From a virus (lineage: Duplodnaviria; Caudoviricetes): a stretch of DNA of 64,000 bases. Position numbers and translations under genes: made by a program. The notes under the pieces are model-generated. The model was not told where the DNA came from, did no database searches, and saw only the letters and a list, made by a program, of their open reading frames with translations. The stretch is taken from the IMG/VR virus record IMGVR_UViG_3300045015_000053; one strand, 5' to 3'. This document shows positions 14,468-46,705 of this stretch, piece after piece (positions within the stretch are counted from its first letter, which is position 1; each line of letters starts with the position of its first letter).

Positions 14468-14767
14468 TTAGAACGTCAGTTCCGAGGCCGCGAACGACAA
14501 GAGCATGCCGTTGTCGAGTGCGACGAGCCAGTTCGGAACCGAAACTCTGGCCTCCGACACTTTCTTGACTTTCTCTTTGCCGTACTGGTTTTTCTTGTCG
14601 AGCTTCACTTTGAACTCGTGGATGTACGGATAGGTGTATGGCCCGGCCAACACCGTACCCATCAAGTCCTGAAGTGCGCCCCCAACGGAATTGACTTTGA
14701 CCCGCTTGCCCTCGTCGTTTCGTCCCTGGACGAGTGTGGCATCATCGGACAGTTTGGGATGGAGCAT
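14468..14767 (-). CDS. hypothetical protein
   Basis: 99-aa ORF converging on the terminator. Confidence 0.65.
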   Translation of the reverse strand: MLHPKLSDDATLVQGRNDEGKRVKVNSVGGALQDLMGTVLAGPYTYPYIHEFKVKLDKKNQYGKEKVKKVSEARVSVPNWLVALDNGMLLSFAASELTF

Positions 14768-14845
14768 AGCAATTAAGTAGTAACCCGGCTCAGAATTTGC
14801 TCCTGCGGCATACGATAAGAGATCGGCAAAAATCTGGAATTAGGG

Positions 14846-14874
14846 TTTACAAAGTCCGGGGGTTTGTCGATACT
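14846..14874 (+). promoter_or_regulatory. sigma70-like promoter for the non-coding RNA cluster
   Basis: TTTACA-N17-GATACT. Confidence 0.6.
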
Positions 14875-14879
14875 GAAAT

Positions 14880-15135
14880 TGTGACGGGTGGGACGCGACG
14901 AGCAAATAAAACAACGACAAGTTGACAAACTGCTCCGAACGGCCTACACTGACTTGACAAGACACCGGAGACACGCCGTGCCGGGTAGGATCGAATGAAT
15001 GGGCGACGTTCGGTCGCCGGCACGGTGTGCTTATGGCGGTCGGTTTGAAACGGCAAGCACGCAAAAACGGACAACGTTCAACTAAGATTGCGTTCTCCAA
15101 ACTTGTGCGACCCGTATGCCTTCCGACCGCCTCCT
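14880..15135 (+). ncRNA. unidentified structured RNA
   Basis: No credible ORF; stems CACGCCGTGCCGG/CCGGCACGGTGTG and GGCGGTCGG/CCGACCGCC. Confidence 0.45.
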
Positions 15136-15230
15136 GGGGGAGTAGCTCAGAGGCCAGAGCGCAATCTAGGGAGCCGATTAAAAACCGGCAAACGTGATTG
15201 AGGTCGTTGGTTCGACTCCAACCTCCCCCA
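15136..15230 (+). tRNA. tRNA-like RNA with 29-nt anticodon loop
   Basis: Acceptor GGGGGAG/CTCCCCC, normal D and T arms, stem CAATC/GATTG enclosing 15167-15195. Confidence 0.7.
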
Positions 15231-15233
15231 CTC

Positions 15234-15299
15234 GGCAGGATGTTAGTAGCGGACTACATTACACCAACACCAATGTGTCTCTACGATTTTTTGCCTGCC
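15234..15299 (+). ncRNA. tRNA-associated ATG/TTTTTG RNA module, copy 1
   Basis: GGCAGG-ATG...ACATT...AATGT...TTTTTTG-CCTGCC, 3 nt after a tRNA-like gene. Confidence 0.6.
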
Positions 15300-15307
15300 A
15301 CAACATG

Positions 15308-15630
15308 CCCCTGGTGGGGCGATCTGCCGGAATGGGCGACGGCAGACGTAACGCCAGGGGCTTCTTAAATCCAGAACGGGTCAGCGAAAAAGCACCAACG
15401 GCATGTAAGAGTGCCTACCCGTTCTGGACTCGTCTTCCGCCTTATCAGCGGAAGTGGTGGAGGCGACGGTGTCACCAACATCGCTGCCCTTCGGAGAGTA
15501 AACTCCGAGCGACTCCGGTCGCGAAACAAATCTGGTGGATCGCTGGCTACTGCCGGCCCCCGGAGTACAGTCTTCGGACGGGCTTGACCCGGAAACAAAA
15601 CTGATGTGGAGTTCCTGTAAAAAGGGGCTT
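15308..15630 (+). ncRNA. unidentified multi-hairpin RNA
   Basis: Stems GCCCCTGG/CCAGGGGC, TCCAGAACGGG/CCCGTTCTGGA, TTCCGC/GCGGAA; no credible ORF. Confidence 0.5.
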
Positions 15631-15635
15631 CATAT

Positions 15636-15707
15636 GGGGAGCAGGTGTCAAGGGACACGTCCTGGCTAATCACCGGGAAGAGTGGGGTTCGATTCCCCGG
15701 CTCCCCT
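15636..15707 (+). tRNA. tRNA-Ile(AAT)
   Basis: Acceptor GGGGAGC/GCTCCCC; CCTGG-CT AAT CA-CCGGG; T loop TTCGATT. Confidence 0.65.
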
Positions 15708-15736
15708 CTGGCGATGGGGATATACCCCTCGCCTCT

Positions 15737-15827
15737 CACTCGCAACATTTTTGACCCGGTCGGGGTGCGATCCCCGTGGGTATGCAGTAGCGGGTGTACA
15801 TTCATGAAAAGCGGAGGGACGTAATGT
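15737..15827 (+). ncRNA. tRNA-associated RNA module, permuted copy 2
   Basis: CACTCGC..TTTTTG-ACCC[T-arm-like hairpin]GGGT-ATG..GCGGGTG-TACATT..AATGT. Confidence 0.5.
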
Positions 15828-15920
15828 CCGAACACTACCAGAGGGGACCGCCCCTGAGAATGTACTACCCCTATATGGCACCCATGTCCGCATACCGCAT
15901 CTGATCGCGCGGGCCGGGTG

Positions 15921-15955
15921 ACAAAAACCCCAGTGAAACCCACTGGGGTTTTTGT
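15921..15955. terminator. intrinsic terminator, A- and T-tailed
   Basis: ACAAAAACCCCAGTG/CACTGGGGTTTTTGT. Confidence 0.8.
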
Positions 15956-15974
15956 TTTTCAAGATAGATACAGC

Positions 15975-16769
15975 ATGCACACCGTCTTCGCCGAGTGGCT
16001 GTTCGAGCGGACCACCGATCCCGAACGCCGCGCCAGAATCGACAAGGCTTTCAACACCCTGAAGGCGTTCATGGAAAAGGTCGTCAAAGAAGACACCTTC
16101 TCCGACTACTTCCAGACGGACGGCGACTTCTACTACTTCTTTCCCTGCGTCAAGCACCTGCCCGAAGTCTTCAAAGGGAACATGGAGTTCATCGCTCAGA
16201 AGTTCGACAAGGAAGCTCAACAAGACACGAACCCTCTGATGGGCCAGCAGATCGACTACAGCGGCGGGTTCAACTTCCTCGACCACGATCCGCCGCTGTT
16301 CACCTTCGTCTTCCAGACCGACCGCAAGACGTTCATCCAGAACTTTCCGAAGTATTGTGCCAACTGGTTGTCACAGGTTCGGCAGACCTTCAATCACGAG
16401 TACAACCACTACCTCGACTGGCTCGACTCGGACGGGAAGGCGATCCCCGCCAAGAACATCTGGAACGCCGGCGCGGGCGAGGCCCAACGGAAGAAATACT
16501 TCAACTCGACGCACGAGGTCAACTCGTTCTTCACCGACATGGTGATGGACGACTTCGAGTTCGTGCGGGGCGGGATGTTCTCGAAGATGCCGCCGGCCAA
16601 GAAACTCGCGGTGTTCGAGAAGATGTACGGCCGGGACGCTCGCGAGTACGTCGCCAAGTTCTGGACCCGCAAACAGGGCTTCTCCGAGTTCTCCACGGAA
16701 ACCCGCAAGCGGCTGTCGAAACGACTGTACGCCGCCTACCAGCAACTGAAGGCCGAAATCTCGGCTTGA
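15975..16769 (+). CDS. HExxH protein with capsid-targeting-like N-terminus
   Basis: FNHEYNHY and THEVNSF; MHTVFAEWLFE; TAGATA 4 nt upstream. Confidence 0.75.
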   Translation: MHTVFAEWLFERTTDPERRARIDKAFNTLKAFMEKVVKEDTFSDYFQTDGDFYYFFPCVKHLPEVFKGNMEFIAQKFDKEAQQDTNPLMGQQIDYSGGFNFLDHDPPLFTFVFQTDRKTFIQNFPKYCANWLSQVRQTFNHEYNHYLDWLDSDGKAIPAKNIWNAGAGEAQRKKYFNSTHEVNSFFTDMVMDDFEFVRGGMFSKMPPAKKLAVFEKMYGRDAREYVAKFWTRKQGFSEFSTETRKRLSKRLYAAYQQLKAEISA

Positions 16770-17582: not shown

Positions 17583-18452
17583 ATGGGACGTGAAGTTCGT
17601 CGTGTGCCGGCCGATTTCAACTGGCCGCTCAAGAAGGTCTGGTCGGGCTTTCAGATGCCCGACGAACTTCACAGTCTCCCTTGCTACCACTGCGGCGGGC
17701 AGGGCGTGAACGCGGCCACCCGCGTTCTGTCCGATAGCTGGTACGATCAGGCCGGTTTCGTGATGGTGGGCTACCAGTTCGCACCGCACGTCACGGACGC
17801 AGAGATCGCCGAGATGGTCAAGAAGGCCGGTGGGCGGTGGACGTACCGTTACGGCCAAGACCGCAACGGGAACGTCGCGGAACGCCCGCCGTGGAAGGTC
17901 ATCGGCGACTATCGCGGCTGGTGTCACGACCTCACCCAAGACGAAGTTCAGCTTCTCTTCGATGAGGGTCGTTTCTACCGGCTCAAAGAAACGGGCGTCT
18001 GCCCCACCGCCGCTGAGATCAACGAGGCGTACCAGCACGGCATGGGCCACGACGCCATCAACATGTGGATCTGCGTCAAGGCCCGCGCACAACGCATGGG
18101 CATCTACGGCCACTGCACCCACTGCAACGGTGAAGGCCGACTCTGGCGGGACGAAGAACACAAGCGGTTGCACGAAGAGTGGCAAGAGACGCCCGTTCCC
18201 GAAGGTCCGGCCTACCAAATCTGGGAGACGGTCAGTGAGGGTTCGCCCGTTTCGCCGGCCTTCTTGAAACCAGAAGACCTCGCGCGGTGGATGGTGCGTA
18301 ACGACGACTCCGTCACCAGCGGCACCAGCTTCGAGGGGTGGGTCAAGTTCATCACGAAGGTCGGGTTCGCGCCGAGTGGTGTGGGCGTCGGCGGCAACAT
18401 CAAGAGCGGCGTCGAGACACTTTCCGAACGTGTCGAAGAGGACGATCAGTGA
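17583..18452 (+). CDS. hypothetical protein with CxxCxGxG zinc-finger motifs
   Basis: CYHCGGQG and CTHCNGEG. Confidence 0.75.
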   Translation: MGREVRRVPADFNWPLKKVWSGFQMPDELHSLPCYHCGGQGVNAATRVLSDSWYDQAGFVMVGYQFAPHVTDAEIAEMVKKAGGRWTYRYGQDRNGNVAERPPWKVIGDYRGWCHDLTQDEVQLLFDEGRFYRLKETGVCPTAAEINEAYQHGMGHDAINMWICVKARAQRMGIYGHCTHCNGEGRLWRDEEHKRLHEEWQETPVPEGPAYQIWETVSEGSPVSPAFLKPEDLARWMVRNDDSVTSGTSFEGWVKFITKVGFAPSGVGVGGNIKSGVETLSERVEEDDQ

Positions 18453-25336: not shown

Positions 25337-25903
25337 TCAGTTCTTGATGAAGAGGGGTTTGTTGATTTTGAATACCGTACCGACCTTCTTGGCGAGCATT
25401 TCGACGTAGCGGCCGTCGTCGGCGATGTCGTTGCCGGGCCACGGGGTCGTCTTCACCACGTCGGCGGCGGCGATCCAGTTGCCCAGGTCGCACTCCGTGA
25501 TCTTCGGCTGACAGCGGCAGACGCTCCAGCCGAACTCGCGGTGGAGCATGTCGCACATGACCATCTTGCAGTCGTTGCTGTCGCGGAAGACCTTCAGCAT
25601 TTCTTCGAGGTAGCCGGGGACGTAGTAGTTGTCGTCGTTGGTCAAGCCGATCACGTCGCCGGTGCAGTGCTTGATCGCGAGATTGCGATACGGGTGGCCC
25701 CAGAATCCCAGAAGTGCGGGGGTTTCGAGCATGACGAGACGTGGGTCGGCGAACGACGCGACGAGTTGTTTGGCGTTGTCGTTCGGGCCGTCAGTCGTTA
25801 TGATCGCTTCCCAGTCCTCGTGCGTCTGACGCTTCAGACAGAGGATCATGGCGAGCAGTCGGTCAACGGGGTACTTCACACGCACGCAGATGGATGCTTT
25901 CAT
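25337..25903 (-). CDS. glycosyltransferase family 2
   Basis: IITTDGP, GHPYRNLAI, LTNDDNYY. Confidence 0.85.
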   Translation of the reverse strand: MKASICVRVKYPVDRLLAMILCLKRQTHEDWEAIITTDGPNDNAKQLVASFADPRLVMLETPALLGFWGHPYRNLAIKHCTGDVIGLTNDDNYYVPGYLEEMLKVFRDSNDCKMVMCDMLHREFGWSVCRCQPKITECDLGNWIAAADVVKTTPWPGNDIADDGRYVEMLAKKVGTVFKINKPLFIKN

Positions 25904-27699: not shown

Positions 27700-27832
27700 G
27701 TTGTGGTAGCTCAGTAGTAGAGCAGCGGACATGGCGAAAGCCTGTTGTCTCGCAATTTTTGCCCGCAAGGGATGCCTGATGGGATTACATTTTAATCCGC
27801 CGGTCGCAGGGTGCGAATCCTTGCCCACAACA
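27700..27832 (+). tRNA. tRNA-Lys(TTT) interrupted by a 59-nt insert (RNA module copy 3)
   Basis: GCGGA-C[27731-27789]TTTTAA-TCCGC; removing 59 nt restores a 7-nt loop. Confidence 0.75.
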
Positions 27833-32204: not shown

Positions 32205-32332
32205 GCCGGGTTAGCTCAGTGGCAGAGCGCGTAAAAGTTGACTCACCACATTTTGCCCGCAAGGGATGACTCGATGGGTTTACATTCCATTCCCAGGACG
32301 AGGTCGCGAAGTTCGATTCTTCGCTCCCGGCT
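32205..32332 (+). tRNA. tRNA-like RNA with RNA module (copy 4) in anticodon arm
   Basis: Acceptor GCCGGG/CCCGGC, normal D and T arms; insert GACTC..TTTTG-CCC-GCAA-GGG-ATG..GGGTTTACAT. Confidence 0.65.
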
Positions 32333-32870: not shown

Positions 32871-32997
32871 TGTGGGGTAGCTCAGTGGTAGGGCGCGTAA
32901 AACTAGATTCGCGCCTTTTTGCCCTAACGGGATGTCCTTGCGGATTTACATTACATGTGAGGACGAGGATGTAAGGTTCGATTCCTTACCCCCACAG
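32871..32997 (+). tRNA. tRNA-like RNA with RNA module (copy 5) in anticodon arm
   Basis: Acceptor TGTGGGG/CCCCACA; GATTCGC..TTTTTG-CCC-TAAC-GGG-ATG..GCGGATT-TACAT-TAC-ATGT-GA. Confidence 0.65.
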
Positions 32998-37260: not shown

Positions 37261-37349
37261 TCCTGGGTAGCATACGTTGGTTAAATGCAGACGGCTGTTA
37301 ACCGTCAGAGGGGGAAACCTCTCCGCTGGTTCGATTCCAGCCCCAGGAG
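37261..37349 (+). tRNA. tRNA-Asn(GTT) with long variable arm
   Basis: GACGG-CT GTT AA-CCGTC then GAGGG-GGAAA-CCTCTC hairpin. Confidence 0.8.
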
Positions 37350-43204: not shown

Positions 43205-43278
43205 GGTGTGCGTGGTGTAGTGGCTTTGCACGTTTCCCTGTGAAGGAAAAGGTGGCGGATCGTAACCGCTCGCACACC
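43205..43278 (+). tRNA. tRNA-His(GTG)
   Basis: G-1:C73 8-bp acceptor; TTTCC-CT GTG AA-GGAAA; atypical T loop ATCGTAA. Confidence 0.8.
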
Positions 43279-46617: not shown

Positions 46618-46705
46618 GGATGGGTAGATTAACTGGTAGAGCGATAAGTGTAGACGGAGATCCGTCAAGCATCAAAGTGTGTGGGTTCGAGTCCCACCCC
46701 ATCCG
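46618..46705 (+). ncRNA. Ser-type tRNA-like RNA with no canonical anticodon arm
   Basis: Acceptor GGATGGG/CCCATCC-G-CT, normal T arm; central GACGG-AGAT-CCGTC hairpin. Confidence 0.5.

What the first reader, a model, noticed from the sequence alone, without database searches (positions are those of the whole stretch)
14780..15955. 1.2-kb ORF-free RNA operon with its own promoter and terminator
Seen: TTTACA-N17-GATACT promoter, two unexplained structured blocks (14880-15135 and 15308-15630) with 8-13-bp stems, two tRNA-like genes, two module copies and a strong terminator. No RNase P (GAGGAAAGUCC), SRP or tmRNA signature was seen. Inference: one or two undescribed ncRNAs released by tRNA punctuation.
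Basis: partly seen in the sequence, partly recalled or inferred. Interest (0 to 1): 0.6.

Follow-up and report, generated by a model that had tools for sequence, protein, structure and literature searches.

The report
Phage RNA operon with tRNA mimics
A roughly 1-kb stretch of a giant lake-water phage makes no protein but encodes a heavily folded, conserved RNA containing two tRNA-shaped pieces that cannot read codons; it matches no catalogued RNA family and its job is unknown.

Summary
The finding is real. Window 14768-15974 is a non-coding transcription unit on the + strand of a huge phage (188-kb fragment, 50 tRNA genes).

- **Boundaries:** two tandem sigma-70-like promoters, whose hexamers are kept in a relative while their spacers drift, and a 15-bp intrinsic terminator.
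- **Conservation:** the only syntenic relative (L001; flanking genes 77-80% DNA identity) keeps 15136-15955 at 84.5% (15232-15635 at 88.6%).
- **No coding signal:** differences show no codon periodicity and several indels shift the frame.
- **Structure:** of 238 predicted pairs, 14 changed on both sides, 15 on one side to or from G-U, and none broke.
- **tRNA mimics:** TL1 (15136-15230) has a tRNA body with a 29-nt rod in place of the anticodon loop. TL2 (15636-15707) has an anticodon loop that is not conserved. Both keep 7-bp acceptor stems, T arms, U at -1 and the "CT" trailer found after 45 of the phage's 48 other tRNAs.

Most likely it is a tRNA-punctuated precursor releasing about 405-nt and 250-nt RNAs. 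No expression data exist. No Rfam family matched beyond tRNA, and no homologue of the large blocks turned up elsewhere. The scan had already noted this stretch.

The parts
14846..14874 (+). Promoter P1 (TTTACA-N17-GATACT)
   Evidence: Found by the promoter scan. The hexamers are kept in L001 (TTTACA / GATATT) while the spacer changes. The X10 variant changes only spacer bases 14860-14863.
14922..14953 (+). Promoter P2 (TTGACA-N17-TACACT followed by GAC); expected start near 14957
   Evidence: Scores 10 of 12 in the scan. Both hexamers are identical in L001 and the spacer has diverged. Its -10 region belongs to a 13-nt motif class with 14 sites, all on the + strand, against 3.45 expected on both strands.
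14957..15135 (+).
   Evidence: Folds with z -4.0 but is only 47% identical to L001, with 53 gap columns. The 13-bp hairpin 14972-15029 is missing in L001 and kept in X10.
15136..15230 (+). TL1: tRNA-shaped RNA with a rod in place of the anticodon loop (non-decoding)
   Evidence: Rfam tRNA scores 52.7 bits with a 29-nt 'loop'; L001 scores 52 bits. There are compensatory changes in the acceptor, anticodon and T stems. The inner stem-loop is kept but not its sequence. ARAGORN's 'Ser-GGA' reading fails in L001. The body is closest to phage tRNA-Gly.
15231..15635 (+). RNA-A: about 405-nt conserved structured RNA, a chain of about 11 hairpins that begins and ends with hairpins
   Evidence: Fold z is -6.8 on the + strand and -5.5 on the - strand. 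Identity to L001 is 88.6%, against 77-80% for the flanking genes. Helices 7-22 hold 5 double and 8 one-sided changes and no broken pair.
15366..15432 (+). Variable hairpin domain inside RNA-A
   Evidence: Cleanly absent from the X10 variant, which skips 67 nt. In L001 it is enlarged by a 38-nt insertion at its tip.
15636..15707 (+). TL2: cloverleaf tRNA mimic without a conserved anticodon loop
   Evidence: Called by ARAGORN but below the Rfam tRNA threshold; the best hit is tRNA-Sec at 25.7 bits against a cut-off of 47. The cloverleaf is the minimum-energy fold in both phages. The loop reads CUAAUCA in the window and CCAAAUA in L001, and the acceptor pair G-C becomes C-G.
15708..15920 (+). RNA-B: about 210-nt conserved structured RNA (about 250 nt with the terminator)
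   Evidence: Fold z is -6.6 on the + strand and -4.2 on the - strand. Three double changes occur in helices 28 and 32. All X10 differences listed between 15735 and 15870 fall in unpaired positions. Model R2 finds only this copy in the phage genome.
15921..15959 (+). Intrinsic terminator
   Evidence: A 15-nt perfect inverted repeat followed by a T run. One A-U pair becomes G-C in L001.
15965..15970 (+). TAGATA motif 4 nt before the ATG of the next gene (context: the downstream gene has its own start signal)
   Evidence: Kept in L001. TAnATA 3-9 nt before an ATG occurs 24 times on the + strand, and 20 of these open ORFs of at least 80 codons. Same-composition control motifs give 4-9.

Best explanation
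Window 14846-15959 is a self-contained, non-coding RNA operon of a huge (about 0.5 Mb) freshwater phage.

Proposed mechanism:
- An RNA polymerase that reads sigma-70-type promoters starts at two tandem promoters, giving 5' ends near 14881 and 14957, and stops at the intrinsic terminator. The transcript is about 1.0-1.08 kb.
- The transcript holds a variable leader, a tRNA-shaped RNA whose anticodon loop is replaced by a rod (TL1), a conserved RNA of about 405 nt (RNA-A), a second tRNA mimic (TL2) and a conserved RNA of about 250 nt (RNA-B) that ends in the terminator hairpin.
- The two mimics probably act as punctuation. RNase P would cut at 15135/15136 and 15635/15636. The 3' tRNA-processing enzyme would cut after the discriminators at 15230 and 15707. 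This would release TL1, RNA-A, TL2 and RNA-B as separate stable RNAs capped by hairpins.

Shown here: the non-coding nature, the + strand, the conserved structure, purifying selection and the boundaries.

Inferred: transcription, the cuts and the stability of the products.

Unknown: what RNA-A and RNA-B do. My guess is that they bind or sequester proteins of the translation or tRNA machinery during takeover, because the phage also carries 50 tRNAs, an EF-Tu and a Ro60-like gene.
For: Not coding:
- Differences from L001 fall 41/39/45 by phase in 15136-15955, against 35/28/99 in the next gene.
- Indels of 1, 2 and 38 nt occur.
- The ORFs in the region are not shared with L001, and the longest + strand ORF has no Pfam hit.

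Under selection:
- 15136-15955 is 84.5% identical and RNA-A 88.6%, against 77-80% for the flanking genes and 47% for the leader.
- Paired columns differ at 8.9% and unpaired columns at 25% (Fisher p 9e-10).

Structure:
- Of 238 pairs, 14 changed on both sides and 15 changed on one side between a Watson-Crick and a G-U pair. None broke. Controls with the partner slid by 1-3 columns give 0-1 double changes.
- The structure holds 20-21 G-U pairs, which only pair on the + strand.
- The + strand folds better than the - strand.
- Folding z-scores lie well below the window background.
- The variable hairpin 15366-15432 is lost in X10 and enlarged in L001 as a whole unit.

Boundaries:
- The promoter hexamers are conserved while the spacers drift.
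- P2 belongs to a promoter class found only on the + strand.
- The terminator is strong and carries a compensatory change.
- The next gene has its own TAnATA start motif.

Punctuation:
- Both mimics have 7-bp acceptor stems, canonical T loops and GG in the D loop. A 7-bp acceptor stem is a major RNase P determinant (PMC4201824).
- 45 of the 48 other phage tRNAs carry CT directly after the discriminator, against a genome CT frequency of 5%.
- TL1 and TL2 both have this CT, and U at -1, in the window and in L001, even though the discriminator bases themselves changed.
- RNA-A starts 3 nt before a hairpin and ends exactly with one. RNA-B starts 2 nt before a hairpin.
Against: - No expression or RNA-end data exist, so transcription and every cleavage are inferred.
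- Only two full sequences were available, plus partial information on a third close variant. The consensus structure was derived from the same two sequences, which favours compatibility by construction.
- Long-range helices are unreliable and carry no covariation.
- TL2 is below Rfam's tRNA threshold.
- The RNA is confined to a narrow lineage. This fits a young accessory element and limits any claim about general importance.
- The function of RNA-A and RNA-B is a guess.
Confidence: 0.6

Rival explanations
1. One large RNA that stays in one piece and works like GOLLD or ROOL. It would be a roughly 1-kb ornate phage RNA, possibly self-assembling, with the two tRNA-shaped domains displayed as covalently linked handles rather than cut out.
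For: GOLLD and ROOL are phage RNAs of unknown function encoded near tRNA islands. Phage tRNAs sometimes sit in the GOLLD linker, between a less conserved 5' region and a conserved 3' region (PMC12286853; PMC5737381). This RNA also has a variable 5' part, embedded tRNA-like elements and a better conserved 3' part, and it lies in a phage with 50 tRNAs.
Against: No GOLLD or ROOL match appears even at E<=10, in the window or in L001. The supported structure is a string of local hairpins. No multistem junction or pseudoknot is supported, and the long-range helices have no covariation. The mimics carry the same 5' and 3' processing context as the phage's real tRNAs, which points to cleavage.
Confidence: 0.2
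2. A giant cis-acting leader that controls the downstream + strand genes (15975 onward) by regulated read-through of the terminator.
For: Only 15 nt separate the terminator's T run from the next ATG, and the downstream genes are on the same strand.
Against: The terminator is a 15-bp perfect stem with a T run, and I found no conserved alternative pairing. The next gene has its own conserved TAnATA start motif, a genome-wide signal tied to long ORFs. A leader would not need two tRNA mimics with a tRNA-type processing context.
Confidence: 0.06
3. Decaying remnants of a tRNA array: two pseudo-tRNAs and their spacers, with no function of their own.
For: TL1 and TL2 cannot decode. The phage's tRNA region has broken tRNA pieces and many deviant tRNAs (earlier notes; long R3 hits). 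The element is restricted to one lineage.
Against: The region is better conserved than the neighbouring protein genes. Its stems are protected three-fold relative to its loops, and 14 pairs changed compensatorily. The promoters and terminator are maintained.
Confidence: 0.06
4. A DNA-level element (replication origin, packaging site or recombination hotspot) whose inverted repeats act as DNA hairpins.
For: The region has a dense set of inverted repeats. It also shows structural variation: a 376-nt indel upstream and gain or loss of a hairpin.
Against: The helices hold 20-21 G-U pairs, and the one-sided changes create G-U only on the + strand. The + strand folds better than the - strand. The unit is framed by promoters and a terminator and contains tRNA folds.
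Confidence: 0.04
5. It encodes one or more small proteins.
For: Chance ORFs of 136 aa (+, 15194-15604) and 192 aa (-, 15365-15943) exist.
Against: The 136-aa + ORF has no Pfam hit; the 192-aa - ORF was not scanned. The differences show no third-position bias. Frame-shifting indels occur in L001, and L001 has different ORFs.
Confidence: 0.02

Closest known systems
GOLLD RNA and ROOL RNA (large ornate RNAs of phages and prophages)
   Same: They are large non-coding RNAs (about 0.6-0.8 kb or more) of phages with unknown function, encoded at or near tRNA islands. GOLLD has a variable 5' part and a conserved 3' part, and sometimes carries tRNAs in its linker (PMC12286853; PMC5737381).
   Different: Neither Rfam model gives any match at E<=10. 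No multistem junctions or pseudoknots are supported here. The embedded elements are non-decoding mimics rather than real tRNAs. The RNA is known from only three near-identical phages.
Phage T4 RNAC and RNAD (small stable RNAs of the T4 tRNA region)
   Same: They are phage RNAs of still unknown function (PMC9697503). From my own knowledge (Broida and Abelson 1985), they are encoded in the T4 tRNA gene cluster and matured from tRNA-containing precursors. That is the same logic of tRNA-linked release.
   Different: The T4 RNAs are about 120-140 nt and sit among real tRNAs. Here the cargo RNAs are about 405 and 250 nt and the punctuating elements cannot decode. No sequence relationship was tested, because no T4 model was to hand.
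tRNA-like processing signals: MALAT1/mascRNA and murine gammaherpesvirus 68 TMER transcripts
   Same: A tRNA-shaped, non-decoding module inside a longer non-coding transcript recruits RNase P and/or RNase Z to define the ends of neighbouring RNAs (my own knowledge). There is a weak, sub-threshold Rfam mascRNA hit on TL2 at 17.9 bits.
   Different: Those systems are eukaryotic or belong to eukaryotic viruses. The Rfam hit is far below threshold (42.5 bits), so this is an analogy only.
YrlA-type bacterial and phage Y RNAs (Ro60 partners that mimic tRNA)
   Same: They are non-decoding tRNA mimics. One with a 7-bp acceptor stem is cut by RNase P and receives CCA (PMC4201824). This phage has a Ro60-like (TROVE) gene.
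   Different: No YrlA Rfam match was found. The TROVE match is weak, at 20 bits and below the cut-off, and lies about 77 kb away rather than adjacent. TL1's rod shows no likeness to the insert of the phage's Y-like RNA at 27700-27832.

Membership tests
tRNA (Rfam RF00005) - TL1, 15136-15230 | Cloverleaf that scores above the curated threshold | tested here: met
   52.7 bits in the window and 52 bits in L001, against a cut-off of 29.
tRNA (Rfam RF00005) - TL1, 15136-15230 | 7-nt anticodon loop with U33 and a conserved anticodon | tested here: not met
   The loop is 29 nt in the window and 31 nt in L001, and folds into an inner stem-loop. No excision gives a canonical loop, and the 'GCC' of the window is 'GUC' in L001. 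ARAGORN finds no tRNA in L001.
tRNA - TL2, 15636-15707 | Score above threshold and a conserved anticodon loop | tested here: not met
   It is not listed at the Rfam gathering score. The best clan hit is tRNA-Sec at 25.7 bits against a cut-off of 47. The loop CUAAUCA becomes CCAAAUA in L001, so U33 is lost.
GOLLD RNA | Match to the Rfam covariance model (conserved 3' domain) | tested here: not met
   No hit at E<=10 in window 14600-16100 or in L001 4850-6000.
GOLLD RNA | Phage location beside tRNAs, with a tRNA in the linker | tested here: met
   The phage has 50 tRNAs and two tRNA-like elements lie inside the unit. This is context only.
ROOL RNA | Match to the Rfam covariance model | tested here: not met
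   No hit at E<=10.
YrlA / Y RNA | Rfam match and a Ro60 gene next to it | tested here: not met
   No YrlA hit. The only TROVE-like frame lies at G000 133.5 kb, about 77 kb away, and scores 20 bits, below the cut-off.
tRNA-punctuated ncRNA precursor (functional class, not a sequence family) | Mimics keep the RNase P and 3'-processing determinants | tested here: met
   Both have 7-bp acceptor stems and T arms. Both have U at -1 and the CT trailer shared with 45 of 48 phage tRNAs, and these are conserved in L001.
tRNA-punctuated ncRNA precursor (functional class, not a sequence family) | Observed RNA ends at the predicted cleavage sites | not testable with these tools
   No RNA run holds the stretch.

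The most novel reading that the evidence does not exclude
A new class of large phage RNA, unrelated in sequence to GOLLD or ROOL, in which covalently embedded non-decoding tRNA mimics are functional parts rather than mere cut sites. They could be handles that capture host tRNA-processing or tRNA-targeting defence enzymes, or parts of an RNA-only assembly. In that case huge phages would carry a family of 'tRNA-bodied' RNAs with re-purposed anticodon arms.
Probability: 0.2. Interest if true: 0.75.

Novelty: new variant of a known kind. Interest (0 to 1): 0.5.

Why it matters
Large structured RNAs of phages (GOLLD, ROOL, T4 RNAC and RNAD) have been known for years without a function, and they sit beside tRNAs for reasons nobody understands.

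This locus is a compact, well-bounded example. The link to tRNA is built into the transcript: two tRNA-shaped modules that cannot decode frame two conserved folded RNAs. That gives a directly testable model, namely cleavage by RNase P and RNase Z in vitro and RNA ends in infected cells. It also gives a defined construct of about 1 kb for structure work.

The locus adds to the evidence that huge phages carry tRNA-bodied RNAs with altered anticodon arms. A TL1-like gene is also present in a 533-kb relative.

Its weight is limited by the narrow distribution (three close variants) and by the absence of expression data.

Tried and rejected
- **RNA evidence:** The look-up of sequencing runs listed no RNA holder, so expression could not be examined.
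- **DNA homologues:** blastn against the phages collection found no match.
- **Exact-pattern scans of viral contigs** with two conserved stretches found nothing.
- **Pattern scans of metagenome contigs:** a conserved 21-mer gave 0 hits. A two-motif pattern gave 120 loci, none of which resembled the RNA by nhmmer or blastn.
- **Pattern scan of genome contigs** gave 5 chance hits in GC-rich bacteria with no match to model R1.
- **Sixteen records of related huge phages** (EF-Tu 57-74% identical, three of them complete) had no match by BLAST, by model R1 for 15430-15592 or by model R2 for 15735-15900. R2 does find itself in the own genome at 204 bits.
- **Synteny:** the two flanking proteins gave no relative in viral contigs. 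Each has only the L001 relative among 5.8 billion proteins. The homologue of gene 17583-18452 in two relatives lies in a different neighbourhood, without tRNAs or large gaps.
- **'Module copies':** not significant.
- **A 32-nt likeness of TL1's insert** to another place in the genome lies inside a coding region and is chance.
- **A short direct repeat between 14813-14830 and TL1's insert** was reached by 7 of 100 shuffles.
- **No antisense targets** for the conserved single-stranded motifs were found in the 188-kb fragment.
- **Long-range helices:** my hand-mapped pairs were mis-registered, and the full-length fold proposes different ones, so I make no claim about them.
- **No clear parent tRNA** emerged by plain identity.
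- **Model R1** was built on a sub-range consensus structure that differs in part from the full-length one. This may have cost sensitivity.
Full report
**Context.** The window is bases 41123-105122 of a single 188,369-bp IMG/VR phage record that CheckV rates 37% complete. The record carries 50 ARAGORN tRNA calls, 44 of them in the window. A protein identical to the upstream neighbour occurs on a 475,914-bp contig, so the phage is probably about 0.5 Mb. The runs that hold the stretch are lake-water and freshwater metagenomes. The finding occupies the gap between a minus-strand 99-aa gene (14468-14767) and a plus-strand gene that starts at 15975.

**Checking the observation.**
- The listed promoter lies at 14846-14874. 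A better one, TTGACA-N17-TACACT, lies at 14922-14950.
- The terminator is a perfect 15-nt inverted repeat at 15921-15955 followed by a T run.
- Rfam finds only tRNA. 15136-15230 scores 52.7 bits with a 29-nt 'anticodon loop'. 15636-15708 is sub-threshold, with tRNA-Sec at 25.7 bits as its best hit. Nothing else reaches even E<=10.
- The three blocks fold far better than dinucleotide shuffles, with z of -4.0, -6.8 and -6.6. 250-nt tiles of the region score -3.2 to -5.8, against a window background of -0.99 +/- 1.63.
- The 'two module copies' are a 17-nt similarity no better than shuffles.

**A relative.** The downstream protein has a single relative among 5.8 billion proteins (83% identity). 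Its 28-kb Logan contig, L001, is syntenic. The alignment of the two intergenic regions is the core of this report.
- Both promoters keep their hexamers while their spacers diverge.
- The stretch from the second promoter to TL1 (14958-15135) is only 47% identical and lacks the 13-bp hairpin in L001.
- From TL1 to the terminator the DNA is 84.5% identical, and 15232-15635 is 88.6% identical. The flanking protein genes are 77-80% identical.
- Differences fall 41/39/45 over the three phases, against 35/28/99 in the next gene. There are 1-, 2- and 38-nt indels.
- The chance ORFs of the window (136 aa on the + strand, 192 aa on the - strand) are not the ORFs of L001. The 136-aa ORF has no Pfam match.

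So the region is not coding, and it is under stronger constraint than its coding neighbours.

**Structure.** RNAalifold on the two sequences gives 238 pairs in 34 helices.
- Counted independently, 14 pairs changed on both sides, 15 changed on one side between a Watson-Crick and a G-U pair, and none is broken. One further base pair is inserted on both strands. Structures with the 3' partner slid by 1-3 columns give 0-1 double changes and about 44% pairing.
- Paired columns differ at 8.9% and unpaired columns at 25% (p 9e-10).
- Each sequence has 20-21 G-U pairs, which would be A-C mismatches on the other strand. The + strand folds better than the - strand: -182 against -163.5 kcal/mol, and -117.9 against -110.7 kcal/mol. 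The RNA is therefore on the + strand.
- Caveat: the structure was derived from the same two sequences. The long-range helices never vary and are not reproduced in a full-length fold. I claim only the local hairpins.

**A third variant.** Contigs of a freshwater run, X10, are about 92% identical to the window.
- X10 shares with L001 a 376-nt insert upstream of the promoters. In L001 this insert is a 125-aa hydrophobic ORF with no Pfam family.
- X10 cleanly lacks hairpin 15366-15432, the same domain that L001 enlarges by 38 nt. This hairpin is a variable module.
- All X10 differences listed between 15735 and 15870 lie in unpaired positions of the consensus structure.

**The tRNA-shaped elements.**
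- TL1 has canonical acceptor, D and T arms. Compensatory changes in the acceptor (two pairs), anticodon (A-U to G-C) and T stems support the class-I reading with a long insert. They do not support ARAGORN's 'Ser-GGA' reading, which fails in L001.
- TL1's insert forms a rod. In the window it is a 5-bp stem, an internal loop, a 4-bp stem and a 9-nt loop. In L001 it is a near-continuous helix of 8 bp plus 7 bp with a pentaloop. No excision gives a U33 loop, and the candidate anticodon is not conserved.
- TL1's body is most like the phage's tRNA-Gly genes.
- TL2 is a clean cloverleaf in both phages, with one G-C to C-G swap in the acceptor stem. It has a 5-bp D stem, a 4-nt D loop and a 6-bp anticodon stem, and its loop sequence is not conserved.
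- Both are therefore non-decoding mimics that keep the tRNA elbow and acceptor end.

**Processing context.**
- 45 of the 48 other tRNA genes of this phage carry CT directly after the discriminator, against a genome-wide CT frequency of 5%.
- TL1 and TL2 have the same CT, and U at -1, in both the window and L001. The discriminators themselves differ between the two phages: A against U for TL1, and U against A for TL2.
- The RNA between the mimics begins 3 nt before a hairpin and ends exactly with one. The 3' RNA begins 2 nt before a hairpin and ends with the terminator.

This supports, by inference only, a tRNA-punctuated precursor.

**Unit boundaries.**
- P2's -10 region belongs to a 13-nt motif class with 14 sites, all on the + strand, against 3.45 expected on both strands.
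- The next gene has TAGATA 4 nt before its ATG, conserved in L001.
- TAnATA 3-9 nt before an ATG occurs 24 times on the + strand, and 20 of these open ORFs of at least 80 codons. Control motifs give 4-9 (lead from e1-5377903).

The downstream gene thus has its own signal, and the RNA unit stands alone.

**Distribution.** Pattern scans, BLAST and two covariance models found no homologue of the large blocks outside these three close variants. The searches covered IMG/VR, JGI metagenomes, GTDB genomes and 16 related huge-phage records, three of them complete. The positive control worked. A model of TL1 did find a TL1-like gene in a complete 533-kb relative (G003 25615-25716, 56.5 bits). It has the same D and T arms and a 36-nt anticodon-arm insert, but it sits between protein genes with no large RNA beside it. 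The tRNA-bodied rod is therefore older than the operon, and the large blocks are a lineage-specific addition.

**Comparison with known systems.** GOLLD and ROOL are the closest in lifestyle. They are phage RNAs near tRNA islands, and tRNAs sometimes sit in the GOLLD linker (PMC12286853; PMC5737381). Neither model matches here. T4 RNAC and RNAD are tRNA-cluster RNAs of unknown function (PMC9697503; their co-transcription with tRNAs is my own knowledge). mascRNA and the TMERs are mechanistic analogies from my own knowledge. Y RNAs are unlikely: there is no YrlA match, and the weak TROVE frame is 77 kb away.

**Verdict.** This is a real, bounded, conserved non-coding RNA operon of a new family. 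It is most likely a tRNA-mimic-punctuated precursor (0.6). The main rival is an unprocessed GOLLD-like RNA (0.2). Its function is unknown, and expression is untested because no RNA run holds it. The scan had noted this stretch and its two tRNA-like elements before, on the same genome.

Noticed in passing
whole phage record G000 (window tRNAs 25989-53814 and beyond): 45 of the 48 other tRNA genes have CT directly after the discriminator base, against a genome CT frequency of 5%. Almost none encode CCA. This looks like a phage-wide 3'-processing signal.
   Followed up: partly
window 11458, 14941, 17521, 43186 and 10 other sites of G000: A 13-nt motif (GGTCTATACTGAC, up to 2 mismatches) occurs 14 times, all on the + strand, against 3.45 expected. 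It often has a TTGACA- or TTTACA-like hexamer about 17 nt upstream. One copy lies directly before tRNA-His at 43206. This looks like a promoter class.
   Followed up: partly
L001 4490-4867 (between window 14819 and 14828): The relatives L001 and X10 carry about 376 extra bases here. In L001 they encode a 125-aa hydrophobic protein with no Pfam family. The window phage lacks it.
   Followed up: partly
L181 1501-1602 (G003 25615-25716): A complete 533-kb related phage has a TL1-like tRNA body with a 36-nt insert in the anticodon arm. It sits right after a small ORF and has no large RNA next to it.
   Followed up: partly
window 32205-32332, 32872-32996, 37261-37349, 46618-46705: The TL1 model also hits four over-long tRNA-like sequences (88-128 nt) in the tRNA array. 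tRNA bodies with inserts seem to be recurrent in this phage.
   Followed up: no
window-wide, e.g. 15965-15970: TAnATA 3-9 nt before an ATG occurs 24 times on the + strand, and 20 of these open ORFs of at least 80 codons. Same-composition control motifs give 4-9. This fits a start-linked (late promoter or leaderless) signal.
   Followed up: partly
window 14468-14767 (-): A protein identical to this 99-aa product is on record on six contigs, the longest 475,914 bp. A near-complete genome of this phage probably exists in public assemblies.
   Followed up: no
window 15523-15538 and 15592-15609: Two similar single-stranded motifs (GAAACAAA-N-CUG-R-UG), each right after a short GC-rich hairpin and 69 nt apart. 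Both are conserved in L001. No complementary target was found in the 188-kb fragment.
   Followed up: partly
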